DNA from: Flaccisagitta enflata
Lineage: Eukaryota
NCBI GenBank assembly: GCA_965153355.1
Contig: OZ231126.1
Span: forward strand, 41,974,001 to 42,038,000
Reading direction: 5' to 3'
DNA: 64,000 nucleotides
Numbering within the stretch: position 1 is the first letter of the stretch; each line of letters begins with the position of its first letter. Made by a program: the position numbers and the translations under genes. Under the pieces are notes generated by a model that saw nothing but the letters and a program-made list of their open reading frames with translations, was not told the DNA's origin and ran no database searches. Positions 15,910 through 57,452 of this stretch are shown here, in pieces.

Positions 15910-17460
<1,551 letters not shown>

Positions 17461-17461
17461 A

Positions 17462-27990: not shown

Positions 27991-28160
27991 GTACGTTCCG
28001 AGCAAAAAGGGCATTATATGGAGGATCTACTGTACGCAACACATTAAATTCAAATATCATAATCTGTGGTTTTTCTGAAAGCCAATGATGCAAGGAATTC
28101 CGCGAACATATTTTTGATACTCTGGCTGCAAAAGGTGAGCACACAGAAAAAAAGTCGTGC
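27991..28160. mobile_element. Left terminal repeat (first 2 nt missing) of the tRNA-cassette TIR family; inverted partner at ~42443-42608
   Basis: About 165 bp nearly identical to the reverse complement of the segment ending 42608|TA. Confidence 0.8.
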
Positions 28161-28262
28161 ACATGTCTGGTTTTGAACCCATGACTTGACAGAATCGCTT
28201 TTCCCAATGCAGAGAAAAGAAGATCTGAAGTCGCGCACGCTAACCATTCAGCTAGCGAGACA
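28157..28262 (-). promoter_or_regulatory. tRNA-derived Pol III A/B-box cassette (not a functional tRNA)
   Basis: - strand TAGCTGAATGGTTAGCG ... GGGTTCAAAACC followed by a T-run; extra hairpin between the boxes; acceptor stem does not pair. Confidence 0.6.
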
Positions 28263-28535
28263 CGGGTGCTAAGGAGGAAAAACAGTTGGATAAATTCTAA
28301 TCCAGCGCTCATTTCACCATCCAAGCGCGGTTGTTCAAAATGTTTTTTTCTTTGTCATGTGCATCGCCAACTTTCATTGATTCATGTAATTGAACCGATA
28401 AACGACCGAAAAAAGAGATAAACAAATCAACTTACGAACTAACAAGTAGACCAAAGACGGAACAATTAAAGGAAAAAAGCACTGCACTGAAAAGGAAATA
28501 GAAATGATCTACTTACAAAAAAAGAACGAAAACGC

Positions 28536-28607
<72 letters not shown>

Positions 28608-28895
28608 AAAAGAAAAAAGAAAGAAAGAAAAAGAAAGGAAGAAAGTAAGTGAAAAAAGAAAGAAAGAAAGAAAGAAAGAAAGAAAAAGAAAAAAGAAAGA
28701 AAGAAAAAGAAAGGAAGAAAGAAAGTGAAAAAAGAAAGAAAGATAAAGAAAGAAAGAAAGAAAAAGAAAGAAAGAAAGAAAAAGAGAGAAAGAAAAAGAA
28801 AGAAAGAAAGAAAAAGAGAAAAAGGAAAAGAAAGAAAGAAAAAGAGAGAAAGAAAGAAAAAAAGAAAAAGAAAGAAAGAAAGAGAAAGAGAAAAA

Positions 28896-28967
<72 letters not shown>

Positions 28968-29240
28968 AAAAGAAAAAAAGAAAGAAAAAGAAAAAAAGAA
29001 AGAAAATGAAAAAAAGAAAGAAAATGAAAAAAAGAAAGAAAAAGAAAAAAAAGAAAGAAAAAGAAAAAAAGAAAGAAAAAGAAAAAAGAAAGAAAAAGAA
29101 AGAAAAAGAAAAAGAAAGAAAGAAAGAGAAAGAAAAACAGAAAGAAAGACAGAAAGAAAGACAGAAAGAAAGACAGAAAGAAAGACAGAAAGAAAGACAG
29201 AAACCGATTGATGGACGTACTGACTATCAGAAAGAAAGAA
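28536..29240. repeat. Degenerate (GAAA)n polypurine tract
   Basis: Direct reading. Confidence 0.95.
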
Positions 29241-29999
29241 ACAAGGCCGGATACAGGGCAAGACGGTCGCGGAAGGTTGGGCAGGAGCCATAATGCAAAG
29301 GTGTAGAATTGCGTGTCCGTCACTAAAAAGGCAGAGAAAGAAAGAAAAAATAAAGATAAAATTAATGGAAGAAATGTAGAAAAAACAAGGCCGGATACAC
29401 GGCCAATACCAGTTGCGGACGGATGGGCGGAAATGCGTGTTTTCACACTTTCCAACTCGATCATCACGGACGGATGGACCAATGGACCGACGGACGGACG
29501 GACAAAGCCTCTTATAGATTTGCGTGTCCGCAACTAGAAATATAAACTGTCTCTAGACGACCTAAATATTCGCACAGTTACACCTACTATAACAAAAAAA
29601 AAAACGCCAATAGCAAATCAACAAGGCCGGATACACGGCCAATAGCAGTTGCGGACGGGTGGGCAGGGGCGGAAATGCGCGTTTTCACACTTTCCAACTC
29701 GATCATCATGGACCGATGGACCAAAGGACCAACGGACGGACAAAGCCTCTTATACAGTTGCGTGTCCGCAACTAAAAAGAAGAAATATACAATTCCAAAA
29801 AGCGTCATCCACGCGATTTTCGAGCCGCGATGGAACGTGATACCAACCTTCTGTCAAGACTTTTGCAAGTAATTGTCTACCATATTCATTCATATTTATT
29901 CATTCATATCTCATACCGCTAAAAGTTAGATGCATTTTAAAACTAACAAGTATATATCAAGAAAATGACCTGTGATTTACAGATTTTCACTTTCCGCGC

Positions 30000-30240
30000 T
30001 ATTCATGAACATTCACGAACATTAACGAATGTTCGAGGACATTCAAAGACATTCTGGGACATTTACGAACTTTCATGAATATTCAAAAATGTTAACGAAA
30101 ATTCATGGATGTTCACAAATGTTTACAAATGTTCACGAACATTCTTGTACATTCACGAACGTTCTTGTACATTCACGAATGTTCTTGTACATTCACGAAC
30201 ATTTACATACGTTCACGAACATTCACAAACATTCGTTCAT
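30000..30240. repeat. ~10-bp degenerate repeat (ATTCACGAAC); inverted counterpart at ~32730-32870
   Basis: Direct reading on both strands. Confidence 0.75.
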
Positions 30241-30825
30241 CATTTTATTGAAATGACACGCGTCTCAACGGTCGCCTCTGTACATAATAAAGGACGTATA
30301 AATATATACAAATTCCCCCTCAGTGTAGAGACTGAGCGACAACCGTGATGCTCTTTTCTCTCCTAATATTACGCGTATGGGGCCGCTGCGGATTTTCGTG
30401 ACAGTAAAGCTGCAGATTTTCATGACTGTAAAGCTGCTGATTTTTATGACAGTGAAGCGACAGAGCTCTGCCAGTCCGTTCTGTCTACGTTTTGGATACA
30501 CGGCCAATACCAGTTGCGGACGGATGGGCAGGGGCGGAAATGCGCGTTTTCACACTTTCCAAGGCTAAGAACCAAGGGCAATAGGTTTGATGATTTAATT
30601 GTCAAAATACGGACCAACCGACCAATCAGTACTATACTAACAGGCAGTCAAACACGCAGCTGTAAAGGAGATGACTAAGAATATGGCGGCGACGATGATG
30701 AAGACGCAAATCAAAGTGAATATTGTATCGACGAAGACAAGATGAAGATGACAAATTGACGATGATATCAAAGATGAAAACGTTAATAGAACTGAGATCA
30801 CGGAATATGATTTAGGTGCGGATAT

Positions 30826-31448
30826 GACGCACTGAAAATTACCATAGAATTTGTTACCCGAGATAGATAAATCATGAAATTTATAAAATGAAATTTAATG
30901 ACAATTTTTGTTTCTATGTTTTCAATTAAACTGTCAACAGCCATATTTTGCATGAATTGACTTGCATATGCCGGTTTTAAATTCCAATCCTTTATTTTAC
31001 AGCTGAAAAAATATGCAAAATACATTAAAAAACTTTTGTCAATGTACCATGGCTCATTGAAAATTTCAAATTTGCATAGAAAATCCAAATATCAACAAAA
31101 CAAGAACATAGCGCGATTCCTAAGACACAAACTGAGGGCGCTATGTTCTTATTTTAATGATATTTGGATTTTTCCTGCAAATTTAAAATTTTCATTGAGC
31201 AGTTACGGAAAAAGATTGTCGCTATTTTTTTAACTTTTTAGTCTCATCAGAATCGAATTCCCTTCAATCTTATAGCATCTTTGTCATTTGACAGTGACAG
31301 ATCGATTTCCTCATGTAAGTTTACACATTTAAGTAAAAAAAAACAAACAAAAACAAGCATCAACCTAAGCAAACATAGTAAAGCAAACGCGTTTAAACAG
31401 TAACTCTGTCCTCTGGGTAAATTCCTCTTGCTTTTATTCCAGTGCGTC
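30826..31448 (+). mobile_element. ~620-bp non-autonomous TIR element with a 4-bp TSD (ATAT)
   Basis: ATAT|GACGCACTG ... CAGTGCGTC|ATAT; internal ~150-bp palindrome at 31050-31200; homologous copy at 34357-34966. Confidence 0.85.
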
Positions 31449-33087
31449 ATATGATTATTTATCATTCAAACAATTTTGGATACCATGGTTGTGTATGATC
31501 CATAATATGAAAAGCTAATCAAGCAATTTTGAGTCTTTATGCGTAATCCACGCTCAGTTCACCATCATGATGAATGGAAGGATTAGCTGACCGAACAAAC
31601 AAGCATGAAGTTTTGACGAGGCTGCTGTTGTTGCTGACTTGCTGTAGCTACAACTGTAACTTGTATTGCTCCGCCTATCGTTCCTCCTGCTCTTCTTCCT
31701 CCTTCTCCCCTTCCTCCTCCTTTTCTTCTTTTCTCTTTCTCCCCTCCCCAGTAGGAAATACAAGACAAGGTCGGATACACGGCCGATAAGTATTTGCTGG
31801 TGTTTGGGCAGGGGAGTAATACGGTGGGCAGGGGCAGGATGGGGCAGGGTTAGGCTGTTATGTGGCGGGGTAGGGTCACTATTGCTTAGAAATCACCAGT
31901 ACAGTCAATTTTGTGTCATTAAGATTCTCGCGTTACCATACTTCCAACATACCTACCTACCTACCTACCTACCTACCTACCTACGGACACAACCTCTTAT
32001 AGAGTCGCTTAGCCAGTGACTAAAGATTGGTAATTGAAAATTGTTATGAACAAACGGACTGACAGACCAAGATGGCAAGGTGTGGATTGCTTGTTCGTGA
32101 TTTAATAAGGCCAAGATTTGGCAAATAAGTGCGCCTCGCTGGATAAATGAGAAGTGAATGAACGTTTTGAATGAATGAATGAATGAATGAATGAATGAAT
32201 GGATGAGTGAATAGCGCATCTGTTCACGACCGAAAACGCGTTTCTTTCCTCGAAGGTGTTTACAGCGTGAACACATATTTATGAATTTCAACTGTCCCAC
32301 GAGGGAGTGAGCGAAGTGAGTGAGCGAGCCTGAGAACCTAGCAAGCAAGCAAGCAAAGCAAGCAGAGCGAGAGCGAGTGAGCGATGCGAGCGAACGAACG
32401 AAGCAAGCAACCGAGTGGCCCATTAAAAACGTGATTGTCTTTGACAAGAAACGCCCCCTGAGATTATGGGTCACTTGTGCGTGCATTTGCACATTCCCTA
32501 GTGCATAGATTTGCAGGTTTGCTCGTGCGTGAATTTGCACATTCGCTTGTGCGTACATTTGCACGCTCGCTTATGTATACATTTTCATGCTTGCTCGTTT
32601 ATGCGTTTACGCGCTCGCTCATGTGTACTCATTTACTCGTTTGCACGCTTTGTTCGTATTTTCCCGCTTTCTGCATTTAAATTTCCCCCATGTATGCATC
32701 AGTACCCTCGATCATGAATGCATTCAATTTGATGAATATTGGTGAACGTATTTTCGTGTGTTTGTATTTTTGTGAACGTATGTTTGTGAATGTTTGTAAA
32801 CGTACGTTAAAGTTCGTGACTCTCCGTGGATTTCCGTGAACATTTTAAACGTTTGTTAATGTTCAAGAGCATTTGTGCACAGCGGGCCTTAACTGGGTAT
32901 GAGTTTAAAAAAATCCCCAATGGTAGTGACTTGTATGAGAAGGTACAATTTATAGTGGAGAATTGATGTAAACCCTTAAAAAAAGATTTCCCTTGAAAAT
33001 TTTTGCAAAAATCGTCTAAAAGTATCAATTTTCGCATATGTTTACATATAGATCTCAAGGATAAATCAGTTTCAAAATTCTTACTAA

Positions 33088-33801
33088 AGATTCACATTTT
33101 TGGTGAAATTTCCAATCATTTGATAGATCACACTTGGGTGCTTCGCATAGAAAAAGTTGGTTATTTCTTTTCACCCTCTTTACCAAATTAGAGTAGATAA
33201 TTTTAGAACCCTTAGCATTTTACTTTTATCAAAAATCGTTCATCTTCCGTTTTTTAGAAAATTGTTATTGAGGACCTAATTTGCATAATGCAGTGGGATG
33301 AAGAAATATGCTGACATTGTTTGAATCAGCTTTCACAAACTTCTACTCTTCATAAAGTTGTAATTCTGCTTTTTTATAAGCTCTTTCATAGCTTATTTTC
33401 TGATGTTTCATTTTATTTTTACAAACATCATGATTTTATAAACCAAATAATTGTCCTTTTTGTAACAAAACTAGAAAGGATTTTGCTGAATTCTGGGCAA
33501 TCAGTGGGAACTTTAAGGCCAAAACAAAAACGGAAGATAAAGGAATTTTAAAAAATGGTCATCTTCATGATTTTTACTCCTCCACATTACCTAAATAGGG
33601 TAAAGGGATACTCACAACTTTTGCTATGTGAAGCACCCAAAGGTCACACTGTATACTTTTATGAAAAAATAAGATTTTCATTTTTCATACCACCGTTACA
33701 AAGAAAGCAACGGTGGCCTAAGATATGAAAATCTTATTTTTTCATGAAAGTATATAATGTGACCTATCAAATGATTGGAAATTTCATCAGGAATGTGAAT
33801 C
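33088..33801. mobile_element. TTAA-site TIR element (Kolobok/piggyBac-type target) inserted in the left TIR of 32878-41212; itself contains a palindromic MITE at ~33642-33764
   Basis: gattcacatt..tg.tgaaatttccaatcatttgatag.tcaca inverted at both ends; the empty site cttaagggtattat is present in the right TIR. Confidence 0.7.
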
Positions 33802-34008
33802 TTAAGGGTATTATCGACCCATGATGAAAAAAAATTACTAAATTCTTTGCTGGTGATGAATGTGATGAATGAACCAGAAGTAATTATTCGCAAAAAACCG
33901 TTCCCCTTTTGCTTAATCCGTTCTATCTCGACAAAATATGTGTCATAACCACCAAAGTTGAGGGGAAATGCAAGAAAAAAAGAATCTTCGCCTCAGCGAA
34001 AAATTGTT

Positions 34009-34087
34009 AATGAGCGAGAGTCGAACTCGCAACGTAATAATGTCTAGGAATTCTTGGTCACAAACGTTACCACTAAGCTAACATCTC
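34009..34087 (-). ncRNA. tRNA-like sequence (tRNA pseudogene or SINE head)
   Basis: - strand A-box TAGCTTAGTGG, perfect T-arm GCGAG-TTCGACT-CTCGC, downstream TTTTT; anticodon arm not canonical. Confidence 0.55.
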
Positions 34088-34356
34088 ATGCTGATAGCGA
34101 GGATAACAATGATGGTTTTATTTCAAAAAATCAATTCTGGCAACCAACCACCGCTGTCAAAAGAAATTCATAGGAAGTCGACTCTGACGCGTCTTGGATG
34201 CTTGATCAGCTGGGATTAGCATTGGTCAGTGAATCAAAAGGAGGGAGAGAGGGAGCGAGAGAGGGGAGGGAGTGAGTGAGTGAGACAGAGCAAGGGAGTA
34301 GTATGGGAGTGAGCAAGTAAGATTGGGACTGAGCAGAAGAGCATGTAAGGCTGTAA

Positions 34357-34966
34357 GACACACTGAAAGTAAATCAGGAAGAGTTTACCCGGAGGACAAA
34401 CTTACCAATCGCTTTACCATTTTTGCTTCGATCCATGATTATGTTATTATCTCAAAAATTAGATATGCATACAAATGTAAGGAAACCAATCTGTTGCTGT
34501 CAAATGACTGAAATGCAAAAAAACGAAGGTAACTTGCTTTTGATGTGACAAATCAGTAAGAAAAATGATAACAATCATTTCAGCAACTGCTCATTGAAAA
34601 TTTTGAATTTGCATTGGAAATCAAAAAATCAACAAATTAAGAACATAGCGCGCCCAGTTAATGAGTTAGGAATCGCGCTATGTTCTTGTTTTGTTGGTAT
34701 TTTGATTTCCTATGCAAATTTAAAATTTTCAATAGACCATGGTACATTGACAAAGCAAGTTTTTTATTCTATTTCGCTTGTTTTTTCAGCTGTAAAACAA
34801 AGGATTTGAGATTAATACTGCCCAATGCAAGTTATTTCATGCAAAATATGTATGTTGACAGTTTGATTGAAAACATCAAAGCAAAATTTTTCATCAAATT
34901 CCATTTTATAAAATTCATGATTCATCTAGCTCGGGTAGCAAATTTGATGATAATTTTCAGTGCGTC
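34357..34966 (-). mobile_element. Second copy of the 4-bp-TSD TIR element (TSD GTAA), opposite orientation
   Basis: GTAA|GACACACTG ... CAGTGCGTC|GTAA; reverse-complement homology to 30826-31448. Confidence 0.85.
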
Positions 34967-36144
34967 GTAAGCAGTAGAGCGCTCAAGCAAGCGTGCACCG
35001 TGCAAGCAAGCAAGGGAGCAGGCACAAGAAAAGAATGAAAGTTATTCTGCAGTATCTTCAAACACTTATTTGTATTTTCGAATGGTTCTGTTTTATTGAT
35101 CTTTTTTTACGTTTTGTTTTCATTTGAAGATTTTCTGTAATTTCAAACTTTATGTTATATCTGAAAGTGTGGTTGTATGACAAGGTCAGATACACGATTA
35201 TGCCAGGCGCGTGTGGATGGGCAGGGGCAGTGATAGAGAAGGGCATTTGGGCAGGAGTAGTGAGCTCAACAAGGCTGGATACACGGTAAGACAGTCGCGG
35301 ACAATTGGGCAGGGGCCGTAATGCAATAACCGCTCGGAATTCAACAAAATTTGTAACGGACCGACTGACCGACGGACCGGCCGACCGACACAGCAAGGTG
35401 TAGAGTTGCGTGTCCGCGACATAAAAGCTCAAAAAAGCCGAAAAAGCAAAAAGGGGACTGACCGACCAATCAACCGACTGACCACTAACAGACAAAACGA
35501 CCTACCAACTGACGAACAAAGTGGATGTAGAGTCACGTAGTAGGTAGTTGGTAGTATTACTGAAATTTTTCATATATTCTTGTAAGTTTTTCAAGTCCTC
35601 AAATGTTCTGTTGTATTATCAAATTTATTTTTGCAATTCTAATCTTTGGTTGTATTTCTGATTATTTTGTAGTATTTTCAAATGTCTTATTGTATTTCCG
35701 AATGGGTTGTCGAAATTTTTGCTTTTTTTTTTGTTTATTCGCATGTTTGCTATACTTGTGAATGTTTTTAGTCGTGGACGCCAGACTGTACAACTAGCCG
35801 TGTTGGTGGGTAGGTAGGTCTGTCACAATCCTGAATTGCAAGCGGTTTTTGCATTACTGCCCCTGCCCAACCATTTGCGACTGTCTTGCCGTGTATCCGG
35901 CCTTGTTTATACTTAGAAAGGTTTTGCTGTACCTTCAAATTGTTCTTTTTTTTCACATTCCATTTTTCCAATGAATTGCTGTTATTTCTGGTCTATACGG
36001 ACTAGCAATCCCCTGATGAGGGGCTTCAGGAGGAGAATTACAAAGAGGACAATAAAGATGGTGCTAACAATCAGTGTGCTGCGTCTCTTTGCATGAATGC
36101 GTGTGTATGAAATATTTACGAAATGTATATACAATATATATGTA

Positions 36145-36225
<81 letters not shown>

Positions 36226-36611
36226 TGTGCGTGTGTGTGTGAGGTCGATGTTGCTGCTGTTTTGGTAGTCGCTGTCATTGTTGTTATTGCCGTCGTTATC
36301 GTAATTGTCGTCATTCACTCACTGAAGCACCCCGTCCACGGAGGGACACGCTTACCGATTTGGGCTCGCGTTTGTGCTGCGCACAGTTAGTTTTTGCCAT
36401 CTATACAGCGCAATCACACACTTCTCTTGCATTCTTGCAGACTCAGTCCTTATCATTCTCGTCCTCATCGTTATTGTCACTGTCGTTGTCATTGTCATTG
36501 TCATTGTCATTGTTGTTGTCGTTGTCATTGTCATCGCTGTTGTCGTCATCACTGTCGTCGTTGTTGTTGTTGTTGTCGTCGTCTTTGTCGTCGTCGTCGT
36601 CGTCGTCGTCG

Positions 36612-36681
<70 letters not shown>

Positions 36682-37459
36682 ATGTTGTTGTTGTCGGTGA
36701 TTCTCATAGTCGTCGTCGCATTTATTTGTTGGTTGTTGTTGTAGTTGTCGGTTGTTGTCATTGCTGTTGTCGTTATTGTCCGCTGTTGTTGGTTATTGTT
36801 GTCATCGCTCATGTCATCATTATCGTTGTCGTCGTTGTCATCGCCATCGTCAATGTCGTTGTCACTGTCGTTATGTGATTTTTGCTCGTTTTGTTTTTGT
36901 TGTTTTCATTTTTGTTTAGGTTTTTGTTTTCATTTTTGTTGTTGTTTTTAGACGCGTGCACGTGACTCTACAACCGGCTTTGTCTGTTGGTTGGTCGGTC
37001 GGTCAGTCAGTTGGTTGGTCGGTCACGTTTTACTTTTATGATTTTATTTCTTTGACCTCACTGCTCCTGCCCAAATGGTCTAGTGACCTCAAATATGGCC
37101 CCTGCCCACCCACACGCGACTTCCGTAGCCGTGTATCCGGCCTTGTTGTTTTCTTTGTTGATTTTTTTTTGTTGTTGTTGTTGTTGTTATGGTTTCTGTA
37201 TTCATTTTCGTCATTATTTTTTGTTTTGTTGCTGTTTTTGCCTTTGTTTTCATCTTCCTTGTTGTTGTTTTCATTTTCGTTATTGTGTTTTCATTTTTGT
37301 TGATGTTTTTGTTTTTGTTTTAGTTATCGTTTTTGTTTTTGTTAATGAAATTTTTGTTTTTGTTGGCGATTACGAAATCGAATTCGAATGTGCGGTTGCC
37401 GATCATCAGAGCTTTGCGTACTTTTCCGTAGCACTTGATGTTTGTTCCGTTCGCTGCTC

Positions 37460-38245
37460 ATAGCATAGCTGAGTGCCGTTGGGGCCAAGGCGACGTTGGG
37501 GTTTTGTTGGCAGGATGATGGAGAGGAGGGCCCCGCCATCGACTTGCAATTTGTTTCCTCCAATTTTGTCCTTTTGGTGAAAGAGATCGCCGTTTTGGCC
37601 AGTCGCGGCATTCACGCTTGTCGATAGATGGGACGTTGTTGAACTTGTCGCTGCCGCGCTTGCAAGTGCCCGCGAGCCCCATCGCCGAATTGCACGTGGT
37701 ACTTGCATAATCTCTGTGCGGTGGCTGCGCCCTTGTTTTTTTGTGAACCGGACTGTTGCGGCTTTCCTCTTTTGGGAGTGCCGGCTGAAATGCCGCTGCG
37801 TGAGTTCGGGGTGGAAAATGCTTTGGGTGAGTCCGCTTTTTGGCGTTGCTGGTTGCCGCAGCGGTTGCGCTGCGGAAGACCGCGTCCGACGGCGTTGGCG
37901 TTGTCGTCGTCGATGCTGAAGCTCTCAAAAGAGGCGGAGACTGCGTTTGCATTGCTCGCTGTTGTTTTGTTGGGCCAAACTCGGAGCGGAGGTAGTTCAA
38001 GAATGCTGTCCACTGTGCGTCAGTTGCATCGCCGTATCAGTACTCGTCGATGTTCGGGTCGTAACCCACGGGAAACTTGATTTCCGGAAATGCTAACGTC
38101 TCGTTCGTTGCACTTATGTTCGCGCCAGTGATGGCGTAATCGTAAGCGGACGCAGACGCGCTGTACTCAACATTTTGGCTGTACTTGTAAGCGTGATCAT
38201 AAGCGTTCCCTCAATTTCTGCGTAAGTGTTCATCATTCCAACGCC

Positions 38246-38313
<68 letters not shown>

Positions 38314-38605
38314 CCCGAATGACAGAAACGGGATGTCCCCTTTGATGCAACTTATGAGCGTCCACGCACATCACTAGGTTGATCAGTTGTTTGCTTGCTT
38401 GGTAATATGCAAAGGTCAAAAATCGCGCAAAACATCCAATTTTTCTTTCTTGCTCTATTTCTTTCTCTCTTTCTCTCTTTCTTTCTTTTTTTCTTTTTTT
38501 CTTTTTTTCTTTTTTTCTTTTTTTCTTTTTTTTCTTTTTTTCTTTTTTTCTTTTTTTCTTTTTTTCTCTTTTTCTCTTTTTCTTTCTTTCTTTCTTTCTT
38601 GCTTA

Positions 38606-38673
<68 letters not shown>

Positions 38674-38939
38674 TTTCTTTTTTTTTCTTTCTTTCTTTGC
38701 TCAGTCTTTCCTTTTTTTCTTTCTTTCTTTCTTTACTCAGTCTTTCCTTTTTTCTTTCTTTCTTTTTCTTTCTTTCTTTCTTTGCTCAGTCTTTCCCTTT
38801 CTTTTTTTCTTCTTTCTTTGCTCAGTATTTCCCTTTCTTTTTTTTTTTCTTTCTTTCTTTCTTTGCTCAGTCTTTCCCTTTCTTTCTTTCTTCCTTTCTC
38901 TTTCTTCTTTTCTTTCTTTCTTTTTCTTTTTTTGCTCAG

Positions 38940-38990
<51 letters not shown>

Positions 38991-39196
38991 GTTTTGCTCA
39001 GTCTTTCCCTTTCTTTTTTTTCTTTCTTTTTTCTTTCTTTTTTCTTTCTATTTTCTTTTTTTTTTCTTTCTTTTTTCTTTCTTTTATTCTTTCTTTGATT
39101 CTTTCTTTGATTCTTTCTTTGATTGATTTGATTGATTGATTTGATTGATTCTTTCTTTGATTGATTTGATGGATTGATTTGATTGATTTGATTGAT

Positions 39197-39248
<52 letters not shown>

Positions 39249-39653
39249 TCCTTCATTCGTTTTTTCTTTTTTTCTTTCGTTGAATTTGGCCAAAATTGGC
39301 TTTACTGTGTAAGAGCTCTAGTAGATTGAGTTGTACTCGTTGTGTACTCGTAATCGTAATCGTACGTGGTCAAAGATAGAAGGAATCATAAGCGTAATCG
39401 TACTCACTCATGCAGTAACGTACGGTGCCTCGCAATTGGTCTAAAACACATCGCGTTACCATCGCTGGTTCGCGCATGTGAAGGCGTTCTCCGTCCTTTT
39501 GATCCATATTTCTACATGGTTCTTGTCAAACGGAGGGATTTCCGGCTTTTTGCGGATGGCGTCTGGCATTGAGGCTGCTGCTACGGCCGTTTCGTTGCGA
39601 ACTTCGTCGCGGAGTTGTTCGCGGAGCCCGTCGAGTTGCTCTTGCGTAGTCAT
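37460..39653 (-). pseudogene. Decayed Gypsy-type LTR retrotransposon gag-protease fragment
   Basis: N-terminus MTTQ...KKPEIPPFDKNHVEIWIKRTENAF continues in frame after removing 38126-39467 (…FPEIKFPVGYDPNIDEY*YGDATDAQWTAFLNYLRSEFGP); knuckle LCKYHVQFGDGAR/TCKRG; protease-like LFHQKDKIGGNKLQVDGGALLSII. Contains a stop and frameshifts; no RT/IN seen. Confidence 0.8.
38126..39467. mobile_element. hAT-like non-autonomous element, 8-bp TSD GTTCGCGC
   Basis: TSD at 38118-38125 and 39468-39475; ends CAGTGATGG / CCATCGCTG; subterminal gtaatcgta and gtactc motifs; interior mostly microsatellite. Confidence 0.88.
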
Positions 39654-41781
39654 TTCTGTTGCAGCTGGGGCATTGTCAAATTGATGAGGTTTGTTTCATT
39701 TTGTTTTCGTTGTTGTTATTGTTTCTGTATTCCTTTTCGTCAATGTTTTTTGGTTTTGTTGTTTTCGCTTTTGTTTTCATTTTTGTTGTTGTGTTTTTGT
39801 TGTTGTTTTTATTTTTGTTTGTGTTGTTTTCGTTTGTTTTTGTTGTTGTTTTCGTCGTCATGGTTGTTGTTTTCATTTTCATTGTTGTTGTTTTCATTTT
39901 TGTTTTGTTGTTTCTCTTGTTGTTTTCATTTTTGTTGTTATCATTATTTTAGTTTTGTCATTGTTGTTTTTGTTTTTGTTCTCGTTATTGTTGTCTTTGT
40001 TTTCATTTTTGTTGTTGCTTACATTGTTGGTTTTGTTTCGTTTTTGTTGTTTTTTCATTTTTTTTATTGTTGTTCTCCATTTCATTTTTGTTGTCGTTTT
40101 CCATTTTGTCGTTTTTTTTTTCATTTTCATTGTTGTTTTTGTTGTTGTTGTCAGTTGATGTCATTGTTCTCAGTTGTTGTTTTCGGCGAGTGTCATTGCT
40201 GTTGTCGTCGTCCCTTTCGGTTGTTGATTGTTGTTGTTGCCATTTTCATCGCCATGTCATCATTGACGTTGTTGTCGTTATCCTCGCTGTCGTCATTGTC
40301 GTTGTCGTTGTATGGTTTTCACTCTTAGGGATGTTAAGCTGGTAATGGTGCATTAGTGTATCGCTGAATAATGACCACGGTAATAGCTTTCGTCTACACT
40401 TGGTTGCCTGCTGCACTAAAACTCAGAATAGTGTGTTTCCCTAGTAACCCGTTTCCTAGATACCAAGCCGAAAACACAAAGATCAAAGTCTAAGTTATTT
40501 GATTCAGGCTTTACCCAGTTCATATCAGGAAAAGTCAAAGGAGCTGATATGAAAAAATAACAGGTACGTTTTTCCTTAGGTTCTAGATCGCAGAGAGCCA
40601 CGAAATTTTACATGTGACATCGGACAGAGATGGTGAAGGGTTGTGGGGATCAAAATTTTTGAAACATTGGTTTTTTGGCACCTTCACAGCGGCTTCCATT
40701 TTTCATTCATTGTTTTACCTATAATAGATGGCTTCCAGTGAACTTTTGATTCCCCACAGTTGTTAGTGCACATTTACTTAATCCAAATCTGCAATTCATT
40801 AGGATTTTGAAGGTCCACTGTCTTCCTAATATGTTCCAACATGAGGTGTTACTTTTACTAATTTAGCAAATATTGTATGTAGAAGAAAATAAACATTGGG
40901 CCTATCGATTTCACATTCGTTGGCACTCATTGAGTGTCTCTAACCCAAACCAGGCCCGAAAAAGTCATCTCATGAATTTTCATCAAGAGCTTATAATACC
41001 CTTAAGTCAGAATTTTGAAACTGATATATCTTTGAGATTTATCTGCAAATATATACAAAAATTGATTATTTTTAACAATTTTTGAAAAAATTTTCAAGGG
41101 AAATTTTTTTTCAAGGCTTTGCATCAATTCTTCAATATAAATTGTACCTACTCATACAAGTCACTACCATCGGGGATTTTTTAAAACTCATACCTCGTTA
41201 TGGCCCACTGTGTGTGTACGATTGTAAACCACGGGTGAATCGCGCGGCCAGTGAAAATCGCCGCTCTTTTTTTTAATCTATACTTTTTCAAAATGCGACT
41301 TGTACGGTATGAGATTTGAAATATTGCCCAGTCCGGATTGATTTTTTCTTTTTCTCTTATTTTGTCTTTTTTTTTTCTGTTTTTCTTTCTTTCTTTCTCT
41401 CTTTCTCACTTTCTTTCTCTCTCTCTTTTTCTTTAAAGTTGCAGACACGCAACTTTAAGAGCCTTTGTCCGTCCGTCCGTTGGTCGGTCCATCTGTTGGT
41501 CCGATCCATAGCCAAATCGAAAAGTGGGAAAATGAGTGTTTTAGAACTTTTTTTTGTATGTGTCTGTGTTGGGAAGGGGGTTGGGTGTGGCTGGGGGTTG
41601 GCCCCCCCCCCTGCCCACCCGTCCGCAACGATATTGTGACCCCGCGTCACTTGTTCTTTTTCTTTTTCACTACTTCCTCTTTTACTACTTTCTCTTTTTT
41701 CTTTCTTTCTTTTTTGTCTTTCTCTCCTTTTTTTTTCTTCTCTTTCTTTCTCTCTTTCTTTCTTTCTCTCTTTCTTTCTTC

Positions 41782-41815
<34 letters not shown>

Positions 41816-41816
41816 C

Positions 41817-41847
<31 letters not shown>

Positions 41848-42339
41848 GTCAGTTTTCACGTCCATCAATTGGTAAGTTGGTCCACTTAGCCTCTTCATAA
41901 ATAGCGCGGATGATGGAACAAGTTACCTTTTCTTTCTTTCTTTCTTTCTTCCTTCCTTCCTTCCTTCCTTCCTGCCTTCCTTCCTTCCTTTCTTTCTTTT
42001 GTTTACATCCTTTCCTTGTTTGTTGAGAATTTTAAATCCCGTTCTTGTGCAGCGTTTGCCGTTTTTTATCAAAATGTCCTTTCTTTGGTTTACTTGTTAG
42101 TACGTTTGTTGTTTTGTTCATCTGTTTGTCTACCCGACCATAGGTTCATTAATTGGTCATTTCATTTTAGCTTAATTTCCATTTTTAAATGCTTTTATAC
42201 AATGTCATAGAGGCATTCTATTTAAAATTATATGACTAATCCACGATGCGAAATTTCATTTCAAACAACTTGGCGCGTGAGTGGAAAAAAAGCAACAAAA
42301 TAGAATATGATTGACTGCTCTTCCTTCACTAGCGCCCGT

Positions 42340-42450
42340 GTCTCGCTAGCCTAATGGATAGCGTTGTGACTCCTGGACTTCTTTTCTCTGTAATGAGAAA
42401 AGTGATTCTGTCAAGTCTCGGGTTCAAAACTGTACGTGTGCACTTTTTTT
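42340..42450 (+). promoter_or_regulatory. tRNA-derived Pol III A/B-box cassette next to the right TIR (which ends 42608|TA)
   Basis: TAGCCTAATGGATAGCG ... GGGTTCAAAAC ... TTTTTTT. Confidence 0.6.
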
Positions 42451-42655
42451 CTGTGTGCTCACCTTTTGCAGTCAGAGTATCAAAATTATGTTCGCGGAAT
42501 TCCTTGCATCATTGGCTTTCAGAAAAACCATAGATTATGATATTTTAATTTAATGTGTTGCGTACAGTAGATCCTCCATATAATGCCCTTTTTGCTCGGA
42601 ACGTACTGTACTTAGTCGCGTTTGCGTTGTGACTCCAGAAAATCTATAAAACAGT

Positions 42656-42914: not shown

Positions 42915-43459
42915 GATTAGGAGCATTTTTTCGAACATATGATTGAAATAATGTTTATATGTCTCATAAATGAATGGATTGAATATTCACACCGAATGAT
43001 ATGTCTTGAGTGTGCGCGACTAAAAAACTTTTTCCCTATGTCCGTTGGTCCTTCCGTGGGTTAGACTCAAGTCTGAAAGTATGAAAACGCGTGTTTGATG
43101 CCGCGGCCCGGTTGTGATAGTTTATGTGTGGAGGGGGGTAGTATGCCCCTGCCCACCCGTTCGCGACGATATTTCAACCCAGCGTTACTTGTTAATTTTG
43201 CCGCTGAACTTTTTAGGTTTATTTTATATGTCAGTCTTTACTTAGATGATACGGTTATTTAAATCCATTCCACGAATTCTTTTATTAGGTAACGGGCGTA
43301 TTGTCCCTATTTTCATTTACATTCAAGACCATGGGTATTAGGCATGCCCGGGAAAAAAATTTATGGGCCCATAGAAATTTAGAAATAAAAATTCGAGTTC
43401 TTTTTCTGTTTTTCGTTTACACATTAAATCTAACACACACTCCAACAAAAAAAGCTTAC

Positions 43460-45366
43460 TTGTAACAAATCACAGCCAAGTTGAATTTTTCTTGGTTCGT
43501 TGGATCATCTTTTGCGTAGTCATGGTTCTGCAGCAAAGTCCGTGACGTTGAAACTAAAACATTGGATGACGATGACGACGATGAAGTTGATGATGACGCC
43601 GACGGCGATGAAGTTGATGTAGGGCACGTCACTGACAACGCCAATCGCGTCGTTGTCGCCGTCGTCATTGGCGTGGGCGTCGTCGTCATTGTCGTCGTCA
43701 TTGTCGTCGTTGTTCCAATCAACGTGGCGGACTTTAAAGAGGTCAATAACGCCGATGACGACGACGGTGATAACGAGGACGACGTTAATGACGATGATGA
43801 CGGAACCGGTGATGTCACAATTTTGGCGGAACGCGCACGACGCGAGGATGATGATGATGACGATAACTTCGATGAAGCTTGACGCCGATCGACGCCGGGA
43901 TAAGCAGAAGCTGTTGACATAGTCTCTAGGGCGCCGGCGGCTGTGATGGCTGCGGCGGCGGCAGCAGTTACAACGGCGGAGGCGGTGGCGGTGGCGGTGA
44001 CCGGATGAACAATGGTGGCGGTGGCCGTAACGCTCGGTTCCGTGACGATGGACGCGGTGCCGATGATGTGGCAGCCGGCGCCGATAATATTTCCGCCTTT
44101 GCTGGCGCCGAAAATCGGCGTTGCTCTCGTGAGACCGCTGCCGGAAATCGGCGTCGTCGTTGTCGTTATCGGCGTCGTGTCTCTGCCGATGGAGCAAATC
44201 GCCGATGAATCATCTCTCAATAATGACGAAGCCGTCTTGGCTCCATTCCGTGTCCCGGGTGAATGCGTCGCGTTTATGTTCGTCGTTAATTTCGTCGTCG
44301 TTCTCGTCGTCATCATCATCGTCGTCGCTGGTTCCATCGTCTTTGCCGTCGTCTTCATCGTTGTCGCTTCACTTTGCCTCGTAGAAAGTTGTATCAATTC
44401 GTATTTTCCATCTAACGAGAAAGACGCTTTTCCCTCGTCGTCGTCGTCGTCGTCGTCGTCGTTTTTGTGGCGAATTTGTTCGTCCACTCTGCCGCCTTTG
44501 TCGAGTTTGTTAACAATATTATCAATTTCATTGCATTTGTTGCGTTCTCCGTTAACATTTGCCGTTTTACCGTCGCCGTCATCGCCGTTACGGTCGCCGT
44601 CATCGCCGTTACGGTCGCCGTTGTTTTCAGTACTCTCGACGTTCATTCTCGCCGTCGCGCTGGTCCTCAAAAACGCCGTTGGCGAAATCGCGATGGGACG
44701 AATCGCGTACGGAAATTTGGTCGAGGTTGTGGTGGTAGTAGTCGCTAAAGATGGAGGTTCCGAGGATTGACGCTGGTCTAGAGGAAGTGGAGGGTCGTGA
44801 TGATGATGATGATGATGATGATGAAGATGATGATGAAGATGAGGAGGAGGAGAGATAGGAGGGGTCGAAGCGGTTGAACTAGGCGGAGAATATAGAAGAT
44901 GATGTTGATGATCGCTACGAGGCTGATCGCTCGCATTATCATTAATACCACGAGATGATTCGTTTTCATTAGATCCGTATCTTTGATGATACGCTCTAGA
45001 AGCGATATAATGACGAAGATCCGGGGAAGTTCGATTTCGCGGGATTGAACCCGGGGAAGACGAAGCGGAGGAAGGGGAAAAAGAGGACGAAAAGGAAAGG
45101 GAAGGAGAGTAGGAGGTAGAAGAAGCGTAGAAAGGGGAAGGTCCGAAGTAAGCAGGCTGAGGCGGAGGAGGAGGAGGGGGAAAAAGAGGCGGGTCATCGT
45201 CTATGTTTTTGTCCCTTGAGGAGTTTAGATCATGACGCCCATGAAACTGAGGAGGGAAAATCACTTGAATAGGTTCAATTGAGATTCGAGGAAAATCTGA
45301 TAAATCCTCGGAAGAAGAGGAGGCGGAGGAAGGAGGATGCTCGTTCCACCACTCGAACGATGATGG

Positions 45367-45464
<98 letters not shown>

Positions 45465-45957
45465 CTTTTGAAAGCGTGAATTGATTCACTCGTCCATGTT
45501 TGTCAACGTTAATTGTCGTTTTCCCAAAGTCGCTTTGTGACATCTCTTCCCTTCCATTGATCCCTTTCACATTGTTCCTTCTATCTCTTCCTTCTATCTC
45601 TTCCTGATATTAGCATTTCCTCCTCTTTTCCCTCCTCCATCTCGCCTCCCACTCCCACCTCCGCCCATCTCGTGTTTCTTTTATCATCTTCCATTTCGGG
45701 ATATTCTCCAAGGGACAGTTCTTCCTCCATTTTATCTAAATCGCTCACGTCAGCAGGCGGATAACTTTCGCTGCGGGCGATAACCCTTCGCGAACCACCC
45801 GGTGAGCCTTGTCTCGTCGTTTCCTGCGCTGCCGACGTCGTCGTCGTCGACATTGTCTTTTTGTTCTTCACTGTCGTCATCGTCGTCGTTATCGTTGTAA
45901 CGTCGTCTGCGCCACTTTCTGTCTTCGACATCACGTTTGCGTCAACACTTGAATTAA
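43460..45957 (-). CDS. Large internal exon encoding an intrinsically disordered S/T/P/Q/H-rich region of an unidentified protein; frameshifted at ~45578-45603
   Basis: Acceptor ttccttctctcctctcgttcag| at 45958 and donor AA|gtaagc at 43459; GC-rich coding-like composition; 704-codon open frame; the two ORFs fuse if one 13-bp copy is removed; ends ...HDYAKDDPTNQEKFNLAVICYK. Confidence 0.72.
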
Positions 45958-47329
45958 CTGAACGAGAGGAGAGAAGGAATTTATGTAAATTTGTACATGT
46001 CTTTTTTTTTCTGTCTGGAATGAGCTTTTTTTCTGTTCGGCGAAGATAGCCGGCAGTCATAAAGGTATAAAGGTAAAGGAAAAGGAGTTGAATATGTAAC
46101 TAACGTTTTAGAAACTTCGATGTCAGTTTAGAAGCTAATTTGCATATTGCATCGTCGAATATGTTGTCATTTCGCTACAACAAGACAAATGCAACTTCGT
46201 GTAATAGGAGAAGAAAAAAAGAATTAAACTTAAAAGCATGAAAGGGGGGGTAAAATCAGGTTTATATGAAAAAATATGAATAAGCAAAGCTTTAAATGTT
46301 GCCTGCCCTTGTATTTGGACAATTAGATCGACCTGTATCCATCAAGTGAACCAAAAAATGACAGGCCCTCTGAAATTTATGGGCTCTTTTCCTCGGAACT
46401 ATCGGAACATCTTACAGTTATCCGAGCAACCGGTCGACCTGTACCCAGGTTAGCAATCCGGCGGGATCGCTCAGCAAACAATTTTGTCTTGATGCAGCGC
46501 GCTCAGTAAGAGGCACAGAAGCAACTGCGTCATCTTGGGCGTCTGGACGATCGGTTAAAATTTCCGCCTTTATTCACCCGGCTAGGTGTAGTAACATCCA
46601 CAGGTACGTACAAAAAAAGAACGTGTCGATGTCATTATACTAACAATATCCTCCTCGTGTGGTAAAGACACAAACTGGCGCACAAGCACGCGCACGTCTC
46701 TGCCGTAAGATTATTCCATTTCAGCGATTGCATTGGGATACCCACGGCTGTCATTTGGTTGAGTTATTGCCTCAGAATAGAATGGGGTATTCGCCCTATA
46801 TGTTGGTTTGGCGGAGTTGGTTGCTCCATCTGCCACGGCAGTTTATTTTGTTGTTGATAGTCGTTGGTTTATGGATTTTGCTTGTGGTTAATGTCCGTTA
46901 GAGAGAAAACAAGGACAACCCTTTACAGTCGCGTGCGGTTGTTAAGACCATTAAACCAAAAGACTAAAAGACAAAGAGACTTAAATTAACTTTGAATAAC
47001 TTAAAATGACTTAAAATGACTTAAAATGTCGTAAAATGTCGAAAAAAGCTAAAACAGACCGACTGACAGACCAACCGACCAACCGACAGACGGACAGAGT
47101 GGGGTGTAGAGTCGCGTGCACGCGACTAAAAAATCCGGGTGCAGTTGTTGTTTAGGGAAGAGATCGTCAGAAGTGGGAATGGGTGGCAACTACCGACTAG
47201 TGAGGGAGAAGTTGCTCATAATTTGTAACCTATTTAGGTAATAAGTAATTTACTACAAGTAAAATGTACTGAAAAGTTTTTTGGGCAGGCGTAGTGATGC
47301 AACATAGCAAAGCCAATAGCAGCCCAAAG

Positions 47330-56515: not shown

Positions 56516-57452
56516 TGTTAGTCGCGTGAACGCGACTCTAGAAGCCGCTATGTCGGTCGGTCTGTTGGTCGGTCGGTCGGTCCGTAACTTTTTTGAAATA
56601 TATGCTTTATAGTCGTTTTAAAGGTTATTGAAGGTTATTGAAGGTAATTGTAGGTAAGTTTTGGTAATTATAGGTAATTTTAGGTAATTTTAGGTAATTA
56701 TAGGTAAATATACAGTACGATGGGAGCAATAAGAGCAGTATAAAGAGGGCCCTCTATATTCTTACTGTTTGAAGGATGAACCTAAAGCTTTGGTTTTTCT
56801 GAAAGCTGATGGTCCAAGGTATTGAGTGAATACAAAATTCCAAACCAAGTGATTCATGACAAAACTGCCAATTGATATTTTAATGTATGTGGTGCGATAG
56901 CTCTGTTGATAGAGTGATGAACTTGAGAAAGTTAATTTCTCTCTCTTCAGTGTCACAGGTTCAAATCCCGAGTGGTGCTGCACTTTTTTTCTTTTTGGTC
57001 AACAGTTAGAGCTAGAGGAATAAAACTATATTCACTCAAAGCTCTTGCTCATCAGCTTTCAGAAAAACCATAATTGAAGCTACTTCATTAGAATAGTGAA
57101 GCAGGAAATGACCCTCCATCTGAGGTTTTCATTGCTCCTGTGGTACTGTAGGTGTTTTAGTAATCTGTATCATATAAGTAAGAAAAGTTGTCTCGGACTA
57201 TAAATTGAGGTAATTGTAGGAAATATAGGAAATAATGGGTAATTTTAGGTGACTATAGATAATTAATGGTAATTTAATGCAATTGTAGGTAGTTATAGGT
57301 ACTTACAGGTAGTTGTGGGTAATTATAGGAAGATATAGCTACTTAGTTATCTTCATTATCTTTATTACCTTAATTACCTTAATTACCTTCATTACCTTAA
57401 TTACCTTTATTACCCTTATTACCACGCGACTAAGGTTTGTTGACCTTGTTTT
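56516..57452 (+). mobile_element. DINE-1/Helentron-like element (subTIR AGTCGCGTG) with 10-bp AGGTAATT repeats
   Basis: 5' tagtcgcgtgaacgcgactct-(gtcg)n; 3' cacgcgacta + aaggt..acctt + gtt. Confidence 0.75.
56713..57148. mobile_element. 436-bp TA-TSD MITE with ~110-bp imperfect TIRs and a central tRNA-like cassette (56891-56990)
   Basis: TA|CAGTACGATGGGAGCAAT ... ATTGCTCCTGTGGTACTG|TA; inner IR ggtttttctgaaagctgatg / catcagctttcagaaaaacc; A-box-like TAGCTCTGTTG, B-box GGTTCAAATCC, T7 run. Confidence 0.85.

What the first reader, a model, noticed from the sequence alone, without database searches (positions are those of the whole stretch)
32878..41212. Transposon ends that read as 23-RSS: heptamer + 23-bp spacer + nonamer-like
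Seen: the right end (reverse complement) is CACAGTG-GGCCATAACGAGGTATGAGTTTT-AAAAAATCC and the left end is CACAGCG-GGCCTTAACTGGGTATGAGTTTA-AAAAAATCC. Both spacers are 23 bp and the block matches the V(D)J nonamer ACAAAAACC at 7/9. Established: RAG1/RSS derive from Transib/RAG-like transposons, which make 5-bp TSDs. Here only a 4-bp match (TGTG) flanks the element, as expected of Chapaev, and the ends are symmetric 23/23 rather than 12/23. No transposase was seen inside. Inference: non-autonomous member of a possibly undescribed Transib/RAG-like/Chapaev-related family.
Basis: partly seen in the sequence, partly recalled or inferred. Interest (0 to 1): 0.7.

Follow-up and report, generated by a model that had tools for sequence, protein, structure and literature searches.

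The report
Broken Transib-type palindromic MITE
The 8.3-kb stretch is an ordinary small non-coding transposon, about 620 bases long and hairpin-shaped, that carries the recombination-signal-like ends long known for Transib transposons and was later split by two unrelated insertions.

Summary
TGTG flanks both sides and no transposase lies inside.

The layout is not new. It is the published Transib terminal consensus: CACAATG, a spacer, then AAAAAAATC at positions 30-38. Most Transib families look like a 23-type signal at both ends.

The object is not an 8.3-kb transposon with 235-bp repeats. It is a 619-bp, almost fully palindromic MITE split by two later insertions: a 507-bp MITE and a 7,196-bp TTAA-flanked element.

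Translating the arm found 79 spurious ORFs on metagenome contigs, which are other copies. 48 of them reach the terminus. All 48 have different flanks and all break at the same base. 34 run through the centre with no insertion. One pair looks like an occupied site and its unoccupied counterpart.

Heptamer and nonamer codons are kept better than spacer codons (154/160 against 259/320).

The duplication length stays open. Only this copy shows both flanks: 4 bp exact, or 5 bp only if a 1-nt deletion is assumed. So it could be canonical Transib or Chapaev-like. No genome or autonomous partner could be reached.

Verdict: a new member of a known kind, of low interest.

The parts
32874..32877 (.). TGTG, left copy of the 4-bp flanking repeat (putative target-site duplication)
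   Evidence: Read. It matches 41213-41216 exactly, while 5 bp do not match (TTGTG against TGTGT).
32878..32915 (+). Left terminal 38 bp: heptamer CACAGCG (32878-32884), 22-nt spacer (32885-32906), nonamer AAAAAAATC (32907-32915)
   Evidence: It matches the Transib TIR consensus nonamer 9/9 at positions 30-38 (PMC1131882 passages).
32878..33133 (+). MITE segment 1: left arm up to the first nested insertion (33125-33133 is the first copy of that insertion's target)
33134..33640 (.). Nested 507-bp MITE with ~49-nt terminal inverted repeats (TTGGGTGCTTCGCATAG...), flanked by AGATCACAC / AGGTCACAC (8-10 bp, 1 mismatch)
   Evidence: (I23). It is absent at this site in 17 of 44 family ORFs that span the site.
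33641..33805 (+). MITE segment 2: second target copy (33641-33649), the central hairpin and the inner right arm, up to TTAA (33802-33805)
   Evidence: (I7, I12)
33806..41001 (.). Nested 7,196-bp insertion with ends GGGTATTAT...ATAATACCC and TTAA on both sides (33802-33805 and 41002-41005). Its interior is a mosaic of microsatellites, other MITE copies and ORFs with no Pfam hit.
   Evidence: Family ORFs run across this site uninterrupted: 33 of 44 span it.
41002..41212 (-). MITE segment 3: right arm (41002-41005 is the second TTAA copy)
41175..41212 (-). Right terminal 38 bp read on the - strand: heptamer CACAGTG (41212-41206), 22-nt spacer, nonamer TAAAAAATC (41183-41175)
41213..41216 (.). TGTG, right copy of the 4-bp flanking repeat
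29950..30330 (-). Inverted paralogue of the DNA into which the MITE inserted. A ~12-nt-period GTTCGTGAATGT-type array runs into GAATAGCGCGGAAAGTGAAAATC. In the occupied locus the array lies left of the MITE and GAATCGCGCGGCCAGTGAAAATC lies right of it.
57030..57149 (+). Unoccupied paralogue of the site carrying another family copy: the flank of metagenome ORF P0002 (residues 71-110) matches here at 29/40 residues

Best explanation
32878-41212 is one old copy of a multi-copy, ~620-bp, almost perfectly palindromic non-coding transposon (a MITE). Its terminal 38 bp follow the Transib-type, RSS-like layout: CACAGTG heptamer, 22/23-nt spacer, A-rich nonamer. It inserted into a short-period repeat array. 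It was later split by a 507-bp MITE and by a 7.2-kb TTAA-flanked element, which is why it now spans 8.3 kb. Inferred, not shown: it is moved in trans by a Transib-superfamily (RAG1-like DDE) transposase encoded elsewhere. That enzyme would cut at the CAC end of the heptamer by the nick-hairpin route, use the A-rich block as a second contact, and integrate with a 4- or 5-bp stagger.
For: Shown:
(1) Ends and arms are as described, and the pattern occurs nowhere else in the window.
(2) The layout equals the published Transib TIR consensus, with AAAAAAATC at positions 30-38, and most families are RSS23-like at both ends (PMC1131882 passages).
(3) Cutting out 33134-33649 and 33806-41005 by coordinates leaves 619 bp. 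Its left half matches the reverse complement of its right half at 266 of 311 columns. Its DNA folding energy is -219.8 kcal/mol, against -46 +/- 5 for 30 shuffles.
(4) Other copies exist. 79 ORFs on short metagenome contigs translate the same arm. 34 of the 79 contain the inner arm in both orientations, so they run through the centre with no insertion.
(5) 48 of the 79 reach the terminus. All 48 have different flank peptides, and in 48/48 the first codon past ...H-C starts with G, the last base of the element. The boundary is therefore exact and the copies are independent insertions.
(6) P0073 (arm plus flank) and P0072 (no arm) are 137/140 identical from the junction outward. This is consistent with an occupied site and its unoccupied counterpart.
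(7) The window's two flanks are contiguous in an inverted paralogue at 29950-30330, so this is one insertion.
(8) Over 40 junctions, heptamer and nonamer codons are kept at 154/160 and spacer codons at 259/320, with no length change.
(9) No fixed TA, TTAA or TWA target: the first flank base is A15 T14 C10 G9.
Against: The only copy with both flanks shows a 4-bp repeat (TGTG), not the 5 bp that canonical Transib makes. A 5-bp reading needs a 1-nt deletion at a junction.

The target is not GC-rich: TGTG here, and the first flank base is G or C in 19 of 48 copies. Kapitonov & Jurka describe GC-rich targets.

Arms of ~300 nt and a strongly conserved subterminal block (the F-C-K-N-F-Q-G-K-F-F-F-K-G codons, about 95-135 nt from the end, containing two CCCTTGAAAA-like repeats) are not stated Transib features.

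No transposase was found in the window and no genome could be searched, so the link to a Transib enzyme rests on end structure alone.

The codon comparison uses related copies, hides synonymous changes, and excludes copies with frameshifts.
Confidence: 0.7

Rival explanations
1. Same MITE, but mobilised by a Chapaev-group (CMC) transposase that makes 3-4-bp duplications. The nonamer-like block would then be either shared ancestry with Transib or coincidence.
For: The flanking repeat is an exact 4 bp, TGTG/TGTG. The joined flanks align best and without gaps to the paralogue when 4 nt are removed (score 110, against 106 for 2 or 5). Chapaev hallmarks are a 3-4-bp TSD and invariable 5'-CAC...GTG-3' termini (PMC4079192 passages). 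The target is not GC-rich.
Against: This rests on n = 1 in an old copy whose arms are 14% diverged. A 5-bp TSD with a 1-nt junction deletion gives the same pre-insertion sequence, so the paralogue cannot separate the two. The nonamer matches the Transib consensus 9/9 at the consensus position. The TWA target of Chapaev3 is excluded, because the first flank base varies. TSD length has been reported to vary (5 bp, 3 bp, TA) inside the Transib lineage itself (bioRxiv 10.64898/2026.08.26.747230 passages), so 4 bp does not force a Chapaev assignment.
Confidence: 0.2
2. A foldback-type MITE of some other superfamily, whose resemblance to Transib/RSS ends is chance.
For: The whole element is a hairpin. 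The most conserved block is subterminal, not terminal. No transposase link has been shown.
Against: CAC at positions 1-3 together with AAAAAAATC at 30-38 is the specific two-block signature of Transib. Kapitonov & Jurka note that hAT ends have G at position 3 and no second block. Flanks of 8 or 9 bp do not match. TA, TTAA and TWA targets are excluded by 48 junctions. The pattern is absent from 100 shuffles.
Confidence: 0.07
3. One reading: one 8.3-kb non-autonomous element with ~235-bp TIRs whose interior belongs to it.
For: Arm pairing appears to extend to about 240 nt when 33090-33806 is skipped.
Against: Family copies run arm-centre-arm in about 620 nt (P0035, P0064 and others). The extra ~25 nt are the inverted ends of a TTAA-flanked insertion. 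The interior shares repeats with other parts of the window and holds nothing family-specific. An ORF from just inside the right arm has no relatives.
Confidence: 0.03

Closest known systems
Transib superfamily non-autonomous elements (such as the TransibN families of Kapitonov & Jurka 2005)
   Same: 5'-CAC... heptamer, 22/23-nt spacer and AAAAAAATC-type nonamer at positions 30-38, with the same layout at both ends and no coding capacity (passages).
   Different: The heptamer is CACAGTG (the RSS form) rather than CACAATG. The flanking repeat is 4 bp in the one copy that can be read, not 5. The target is not GC-rich. The whole element is a ~300-nt-arm palindrome rather than carrying a short TIR.
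Hopper/Kodama and relatives (Nozomi lineage of Transib; bioRxiv 10.64898/2026.08.26.747230, passages only)
   Same: MITE-like non-autonomous Transib derivatives mobilised in trans. That work shows TSD length and TIR ends are labile within Transib (5 bp, 3 bp, TA).
   Different: Those are 1.4-kb internal-deletion derivatives with 37-bp TIRs and a known autonomous partner. Here the element is a 619-bp palindrome with no partner identified.
Chapaev transposons (CMC group)
   Same: CAC...GTG termini, and a 3-4-bp TSD is compatible with TGTG/TGTG (PMC4079192 passages).
   Different: The passages I read report no A-rich second block for Chapaev. The TWA target of Chapaev3 is excluded here.
V(D)J 23-RSS and RAG-like (RAGL) transposon TIRs
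   Same: Identical heptamer CACAGTG and an A-rich nonamer about 22-23 nt away (7/9 to ACAAAAACC).
   Different: No 12/23 asymmetry. No A-rich TR2 block next to the heptamer, as in RAGL TIRs (PMC10462144 passages); here that stretch is GGCCTTAAC. There is no RAG1L/RAG2L gene, and this is a dispersed repeat, not a receptor locus.

Membership tests
Transib superfamily (canonical) | Termini 5'-CAC...GTG-3' with a CACAATG-like heptamer | tested here: met
   The heptamers are CACAGCG and CACAGTG. In family copies the H and C codons are kept at 36/40 and 40/40, and the terminal G at 48/48.
Transib superfamily (canonical) | Second conserved block: A-rich nonamer AAAAAAATC at positions 30-38 of a 38-bp TIR | tested here: met
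   9/9 on the left and 8/9 on the right. The I and F codons covering it are each kept at 39/40, and the spacer length is unchanged in the 40 junctions that stay in frame. The consensus comes from PMC1131882 passages. That paper says '23-bp spacer' but also '38-bp' and 'position 34 = nonamer position 5', which together imply 22.
Transib superfamily (canonical) | 5-bp target-site duplication | tested here: inconclusive
   Only one copy shows both flanks: TTGTG against TGTGT does not match, while TGTG/TGTG (4 bp) does. A 1-nt junction deletion would reconcile this with 5 bp.
Transib superfamily (canonical) | Preference for GC-rich targets | tested here: not met
   The first flank base is A15 T14 C10 G9 in 48 junctions. 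That is 40% G+C, about the window's own composition. This is a tendency of the family, not a strict criterion.
Transib superfamily (canonical) | Autonomous partner encoding a RAG1-core-like DDE transposase | not testable with these tools
   No genome is held, there is none in the window, and the collection scans gave only chance hits.
Chapaev (CMC group) | 3-4-bp TSD with CAC...GTG termini | tested here: inconclusive
   Compatible in the single readable copy (TGTG), but n = 1. The hallmarks come from PMC4079192 passages.
Chapaev3 subgroup | TWA target between A and T | tested here: not met
   The first flank base is T in only 14 of 48 junctions, and the window copy has TGTG.
RAG-like (RAGL) transposons | Heptamer followed directly by an A-rich TR2 block (RAGL-A/B); length asymmetry of the two TIR spacers (RAGL-A); 5-bp TSD | tested here: not met
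   The bases after the heptamer are GGCCTTAAC, and both ends have the same spacing. The criteria come from PMC10462144 passages.
MITE (structural class) | Short, non-coding, TIR-bounded, many copies at different sites | tested here: met
   619 bp after removing the nested insertions. Stops lie in the inward frames (read). 48 junctions have 48 different flanks.

The most novel reading that the evidence does not exclude
The family really makes 4-bp duplications while carrying full Transib/RSS-type ends (RSS heptamer CACAGTG, constant 22/23-nt spacer, constrained A-rich nonamer). That would make it a lineage between canonical Transib and Chapaev. It would show that the heptamer-spacer-nonamer end architecture is older or wider than the 5-bp integration geometry. 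It may also still be mobile, given an occupied and an unoccupied version of one site in metagenome data.
Probability: 0.3. Interest if true: 0.4.

Novelty: new member of a known kind. Interest (0 to 1): 0.2.

Why it matters
It matters little on its own. RSS-like Transib ends have been textbook since 2005, and Transib-derived non-autonomous elements are known. The case does show that this 'long TIR, long element' call is a small palindromic MITE swollen by nested insertions. The family gives a clean natural example of constraint on the heptamer and nonamer but not on the spacer. If the 4-bp duplication proved general, it would add to recent evidence that TSD length is labile within the Transib lineage.

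Tried and rejected
Own genome: none is held.

Sequencing runs: 18 runs were listed, none holding half of the words. Two runs of a coded organism held 0.36 and 0.31, and the rest had small shares and were labelled marine metagenomes. None was laid, so I draw no conclusion on habitat or host.

DNA pattern scans:
- A 20-mer from the arm, in metagenome and viral contigs, hit one 38.7-kb phage-like contig twice. It was a 21-nt chance match with no further similarity.
- A 21-nt terminal pattern gave 4 bacterial MAG contigs in genome contigs, all chance, and 0 in viral contigs.
- The search for related loci with the family profile in viral contigs matched 81 stretches, none confirmed.
So no DNA of any other copy was obtained, and the TSD could not be read from other copies.

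Other searches:
- Earlier findings: nothing.
- The ORF just inside the right arm: no relatives.
- The 717-aa ORF at 43459-45609 was tested as a possible transposase. It is low-complexity with no family and no PDB relative.
- Rfam and tRNA scans of the window: nothing.
- A paper search for the 11-nt terminus found 14 papers. The 10 listed look unrelated by title and abstract.
- ESM Atlas: best score 0.78, uninformative.

Partner junctions: I looked for the opposite junction of the P0002 insertion, whose frame against 57030 would have given the TSD length, and for that of P0073. Neither was among the 79 ORFs.

Rejected reading: I first took 33084-33806 to be a MITE nested in the left arm. Family copies show it is the element's own centre.
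Full report
**1. The observation**

The repeat finder gives arms 32878-33089 and 41001-41212, 212 nt long and 86% complementary. BLAST of either arm against the window finds only these two copies.

Outside the arms the sequences do not align. The left flank ends ...CATTTGTG and the right flank begins TGTGTACG.... Four bases match exactly, and five do not (TTGTG against TGTGT).

The pattern CACAGTG-N22-AAAAAAATC with at most one mismatch occurs only at these two ends. None of 100 dinucleotide-preserving shuffles has a match. With three mismatches there are 25 matches against 2.2 expected, mostly from a 301-bp satellite. Because the arms are copies of each other, this is one observation, not two.

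No transposase is present. Of 83 ORFs taken from the whole window (82 of at least 90 aa after a low-complexity filter, plus one of 79 aa), none reached a Pfam curated cut-off and none hit a transposase family.

**2. The layout is the published Transib end**

I read passages, not the whole text, of Kapitonov & Jurka 2005 (PMC1131882). They state that the 38-bp consensus TIR of 21 Transib families is a CACAATG heptamer, a variable spacer and an AAAAAAATC nonamer. They state that most families have RSS23-like TIRs at both ends, and that Transibs make 5-bp TSDs, preferably in GC-rich targets.

The paper says '23-bp spacer'. Its '38 bp' and 'position 34 = nonamer position 5' imply 22.

On that count the left end here is CACAGCG + 22 + AAAAAAATC (nonamer 9/9). 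The right end is CACAGTG + 22 + TAAAAAATC (8/9).

**3. What the object really is**

No genome is held, and DNA scans of the public collections gave only chance hits. The outward-reading frame of the left arm happens to be open, so I used its translation as a probe (window:32810-33091:-).

The probe found:
- 9 ORFs;
- 22 cluster representatives;
- 43 ORFs with a profile of the arm parts;
- further cluster members.

In all, 79 ORFs lie on short contigs of ENA and JGI metagenome assemblies. They are gene-caller artefacts on other copies of the repeat, and I use them only as proxies for the DNA.

Long ones (P0035, P0064, P0041, P0008, P0019, P0030 and others) read arm, inner arm, small loop, inner arm, arm. 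34 of the 79 contain the inner arm in both orientations.

Against this template the window copy carries two insertions:
- **33134-33640**: 507 bp with its own ~49-nt TIRs, flanked by AGATCACAC / AGGTCACAC.
- **33806-41001**: 7,196 bp with ends GGGTATTAT...ATAATACCC and TTAA on both sides.

Removing each insertion with one copy of its duplicated target leaves 619 bp. The left half matches the reverse complement of the right half at 266 of 311 columns (85.5%). As single-stranded DNA it folds at -219.8 kcal/mol, against -46 +/- 5 for 30 shuffles.

Of 44 family ORFs, 17 align across the first insertion site uninterrupted and 33 align across the second. Because the element is palindromic, an ORF can map to either arm.

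I had first read 33084-33806 as a MITE nested in the left arm. The family copies show it is the element's own centre.

**4. It is one insertion and a mobile family**

The left flank is a ~12-nt-period array of the GTTCGTGAATGT type. An inverted paralogue at 29950-30330 runs from the same array into GAATAGCGCGGAAAGTGAAAATC. The right flank of the element carries GAATCGCGCGGCCAGTGAAAATC. The two flanks were therefore once contiguous.

Of the 79 ORFs, 48 reach the terminus with at least one flank residue. The other 31 stop or shift frame before it and were dropped. The 48 have 48 different flank peptides. In 48/48 the first codon after ...H-C starts with G (V14, E11, A10, G9, D4). So the element ends at exactly the same base in every copy, and the next base varies (A15, T14, C10, G9). 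This excludes fixed TA, TTAA or TWA targets and shows no GC preference at that position.

P0073 (arm, junction, flank) and P0072 (same flank, no arm) are 137/140 identical from the junction outward. This is consistent with an occupied site and its unoccupied counterpart.

The flank of P0002 matches window 57030-57149 at 29/40 residues. Flanks of P0021 and P0044 match other repeat families of the window. The metagenome copies therefore probably come from the same or a related organism.

**5.

I used 40 junctions: 38 ORFs plus the two window arms. Six of the first 44 ORFs were dropped because they do not reach the end in frame.

| Codons | Kept per codon | Total |
|---|---|---|
| Nonamer and heptamer | I 39, F 39, H 36, C 40 (each of 40) | 154/160 |
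| Eight spacer codons | 28, 39, 29, 38, 27, 26, 37, 35 (each of 40) | 259/320 |

These counts come; the sums are mine. There is no length change between the two blocks.

The result is in the direction expected if both blocks are contacted by the transposase. Three caveats apply:
- The copies are related, so subfamily changes count many times.
- Synonymous changes are invisible.
- Copies with frameshifts are excluded by construction.

The family consensus heptamer is CACAGTG. CACAGCG (an R codon) appears in the window's left end and in P0002 and P0011.

The best-kept block of all lies about 95-135 nt from the end. It contains two CCCTTGAAAA-like repeats, read, and may be a subterminal binding site. 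That is an inference.

**6. Which transposase**

Passages I read:
- Chapaev elements have 3-4-bp TSDs and invariable CAC...GTG ends (PMC4079192).
- Kapitonov & Koonin 2015 place Chapaev as a clade of the Transib superfamily (PMC4411706). Repbase moved it to EnSpm (PMC4455052).
- Kojima 2025 groups them all as a clade with CA...TG ends and 2-5-bp TSDs (PMC12730594).
- A 2026 preprint reports 5-bp, 3-bp and TA duplications within one Transib lineage and calls TSD and TIR architecture labile (10.64898/2026.08.26.747230).
- RAGL TIRs carry an A-rich TR2 block next to the heptamer, and RAGL-A TIRs also have asymmetric spacers (PMC10462144). Neither feature is seen here.

For the window copy, the joined flanks align best and ungapped to the paralogue when 4 nt are removed (score 110, against 106 for 2 or 5). 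A 5-bp TSD that lost one base at a junction predicts the same pre-insertion sequence, so this does not decide the matter. Parsimony favours 4 bp, and the end architecture favours canonical Transib.

My weights:
- about 0.7 that a Transib-superfamily enzyme in the broad sense moves it through these RSS-like ends, with the TSD length left open;
- 0.2 that the enzyme is specifically of the Chapaev group;
- under 0.1 that the resemblance is chance.

**7. Shown and inferred**

Shown:
- the ends, the anatomy and the nested insertions;
- multi-copy status and the exact boundary;
- absence of a fixed target;
- better conservation of the two end blocks.

Inferred:
- the kind of transposase;
- the nick-hairpin chemistry;
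- the role of the A-rich block;
- current mobility.

**8. Novelty and limits**

This is a new member of a known kind. I could not consult Repbase or Dfam, so I cannot say whether the family already has a name. A paper search for the 11-nt terminus returned 14 papers, and the 10 listed look unrelated by title and abstract. I did not read the supplements of the cited papers, which include the TSD tables. They could bear on how often non-5-bp TSDs occur in Transib.

Noticed in passing
33806-41001: A 7,196-bp insertion with perfect 9-nt inverted ends GGGTATTAT...ATAATACCC (about 20 of 26 nt alike further in) and TTAA on both sides. The ends are GGG...CCC, the reverse of the piggyBac CCC...GGG that I recall. 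The interior is a mosaic of microsatellites, other MITEs and ORFs without Pfam hits (for example 37461-38036 and 39456-39695, - strand).
   Followed up: partly
33134-33640: A 507-bp MITE with ~49-nt TIRs (TTGGGTGCTTCGCATAG...) and an 8-10-bp flanking repeat AGATCACAC / AGGTCACAC (1 mismatch). That TSD length suggests a hAT- or Mutator-type element.
   Followed up: partly
17457-23700: A 301-bp satellite, about 16 copies at 97% plus variants with 478/485-bp periods. Each unit contains a weak match (3 mismatches) to the heptamer-N22-nonamer pattern, which is why the loose search gave 25 matches.
   Followed up: no
11987-14996: A tandem array with 313/446-bp periods. Its overlapping ORFs give sub-threshold hits to the cysteine-rich Follistatin N-terminal family (best 25.9 bits against a cut-off of 27). 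It could be a repeat-built exon or just a satellite.
   Followed up: no
43459-45609 (- strand): A 717-codon open frame with poly-Q, poly-His and Ser/Thr-rich runs. It has no Pfam family and no PDB relative. It is probably a low-complexity exon or an accidental open frame, and it is not a transposase.
   Followed up: partly
56712-57149: A ~440-bp element with inverted ends (ACAGTACGATGGGAGCAAT... / ...ATTGCTCCTGTGGTACTGT) and an internal GGTTCAAATCCC tRNA-like box. ARAGORN and Rfam call nothing here. A copy of this family elsewhere hosts the P0002 MITE insertion.
   Followed up: partly
35180-37146; also 5231-5377, 6096-6186, 29466-29784, 41426-41496, 47034-47135, 60764-61201, 61446-61665: A multi-copy MITE family rich in GGACGG/CCGTCC motifs, with TIR ACAAGGTCAGATACACG.... 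A member interrupts the arm of another family copy, seen in ORF P0044.
   Followed up: no
27991-29784 and 41426-42606: An outer inverted pair of colinear repeats (27991-28286 with 42314-42606 at 89%; 28412-28854 with 41654-42127 at 72%) brackets the whole region. A further inverted pair is 30823-31451 with 34354-34969 at 77%. The centres differ, so these are separate repeat copies, not one large palindrome.
   Followed up: no
P0072 / P0073 (metagenome ORFs): At the occupied/unoccupied pair, the first flank base inferred from the junction codon (G-G-N in P0073) differs from the corresponding base of P0072 (C-A-Y), although the next 140 residues are 98% identical. This could be a SNP, a paralogue or an excision footprint.
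   Followed up: no
flanks of 48 metagenome copies: The second flank codon is Gln in 6 of 48 junctions and His in 1, so C-A at flank positions 3-4 may be over-represented. This hints at a weak target preference but is too thin to use.
   Followed up: no
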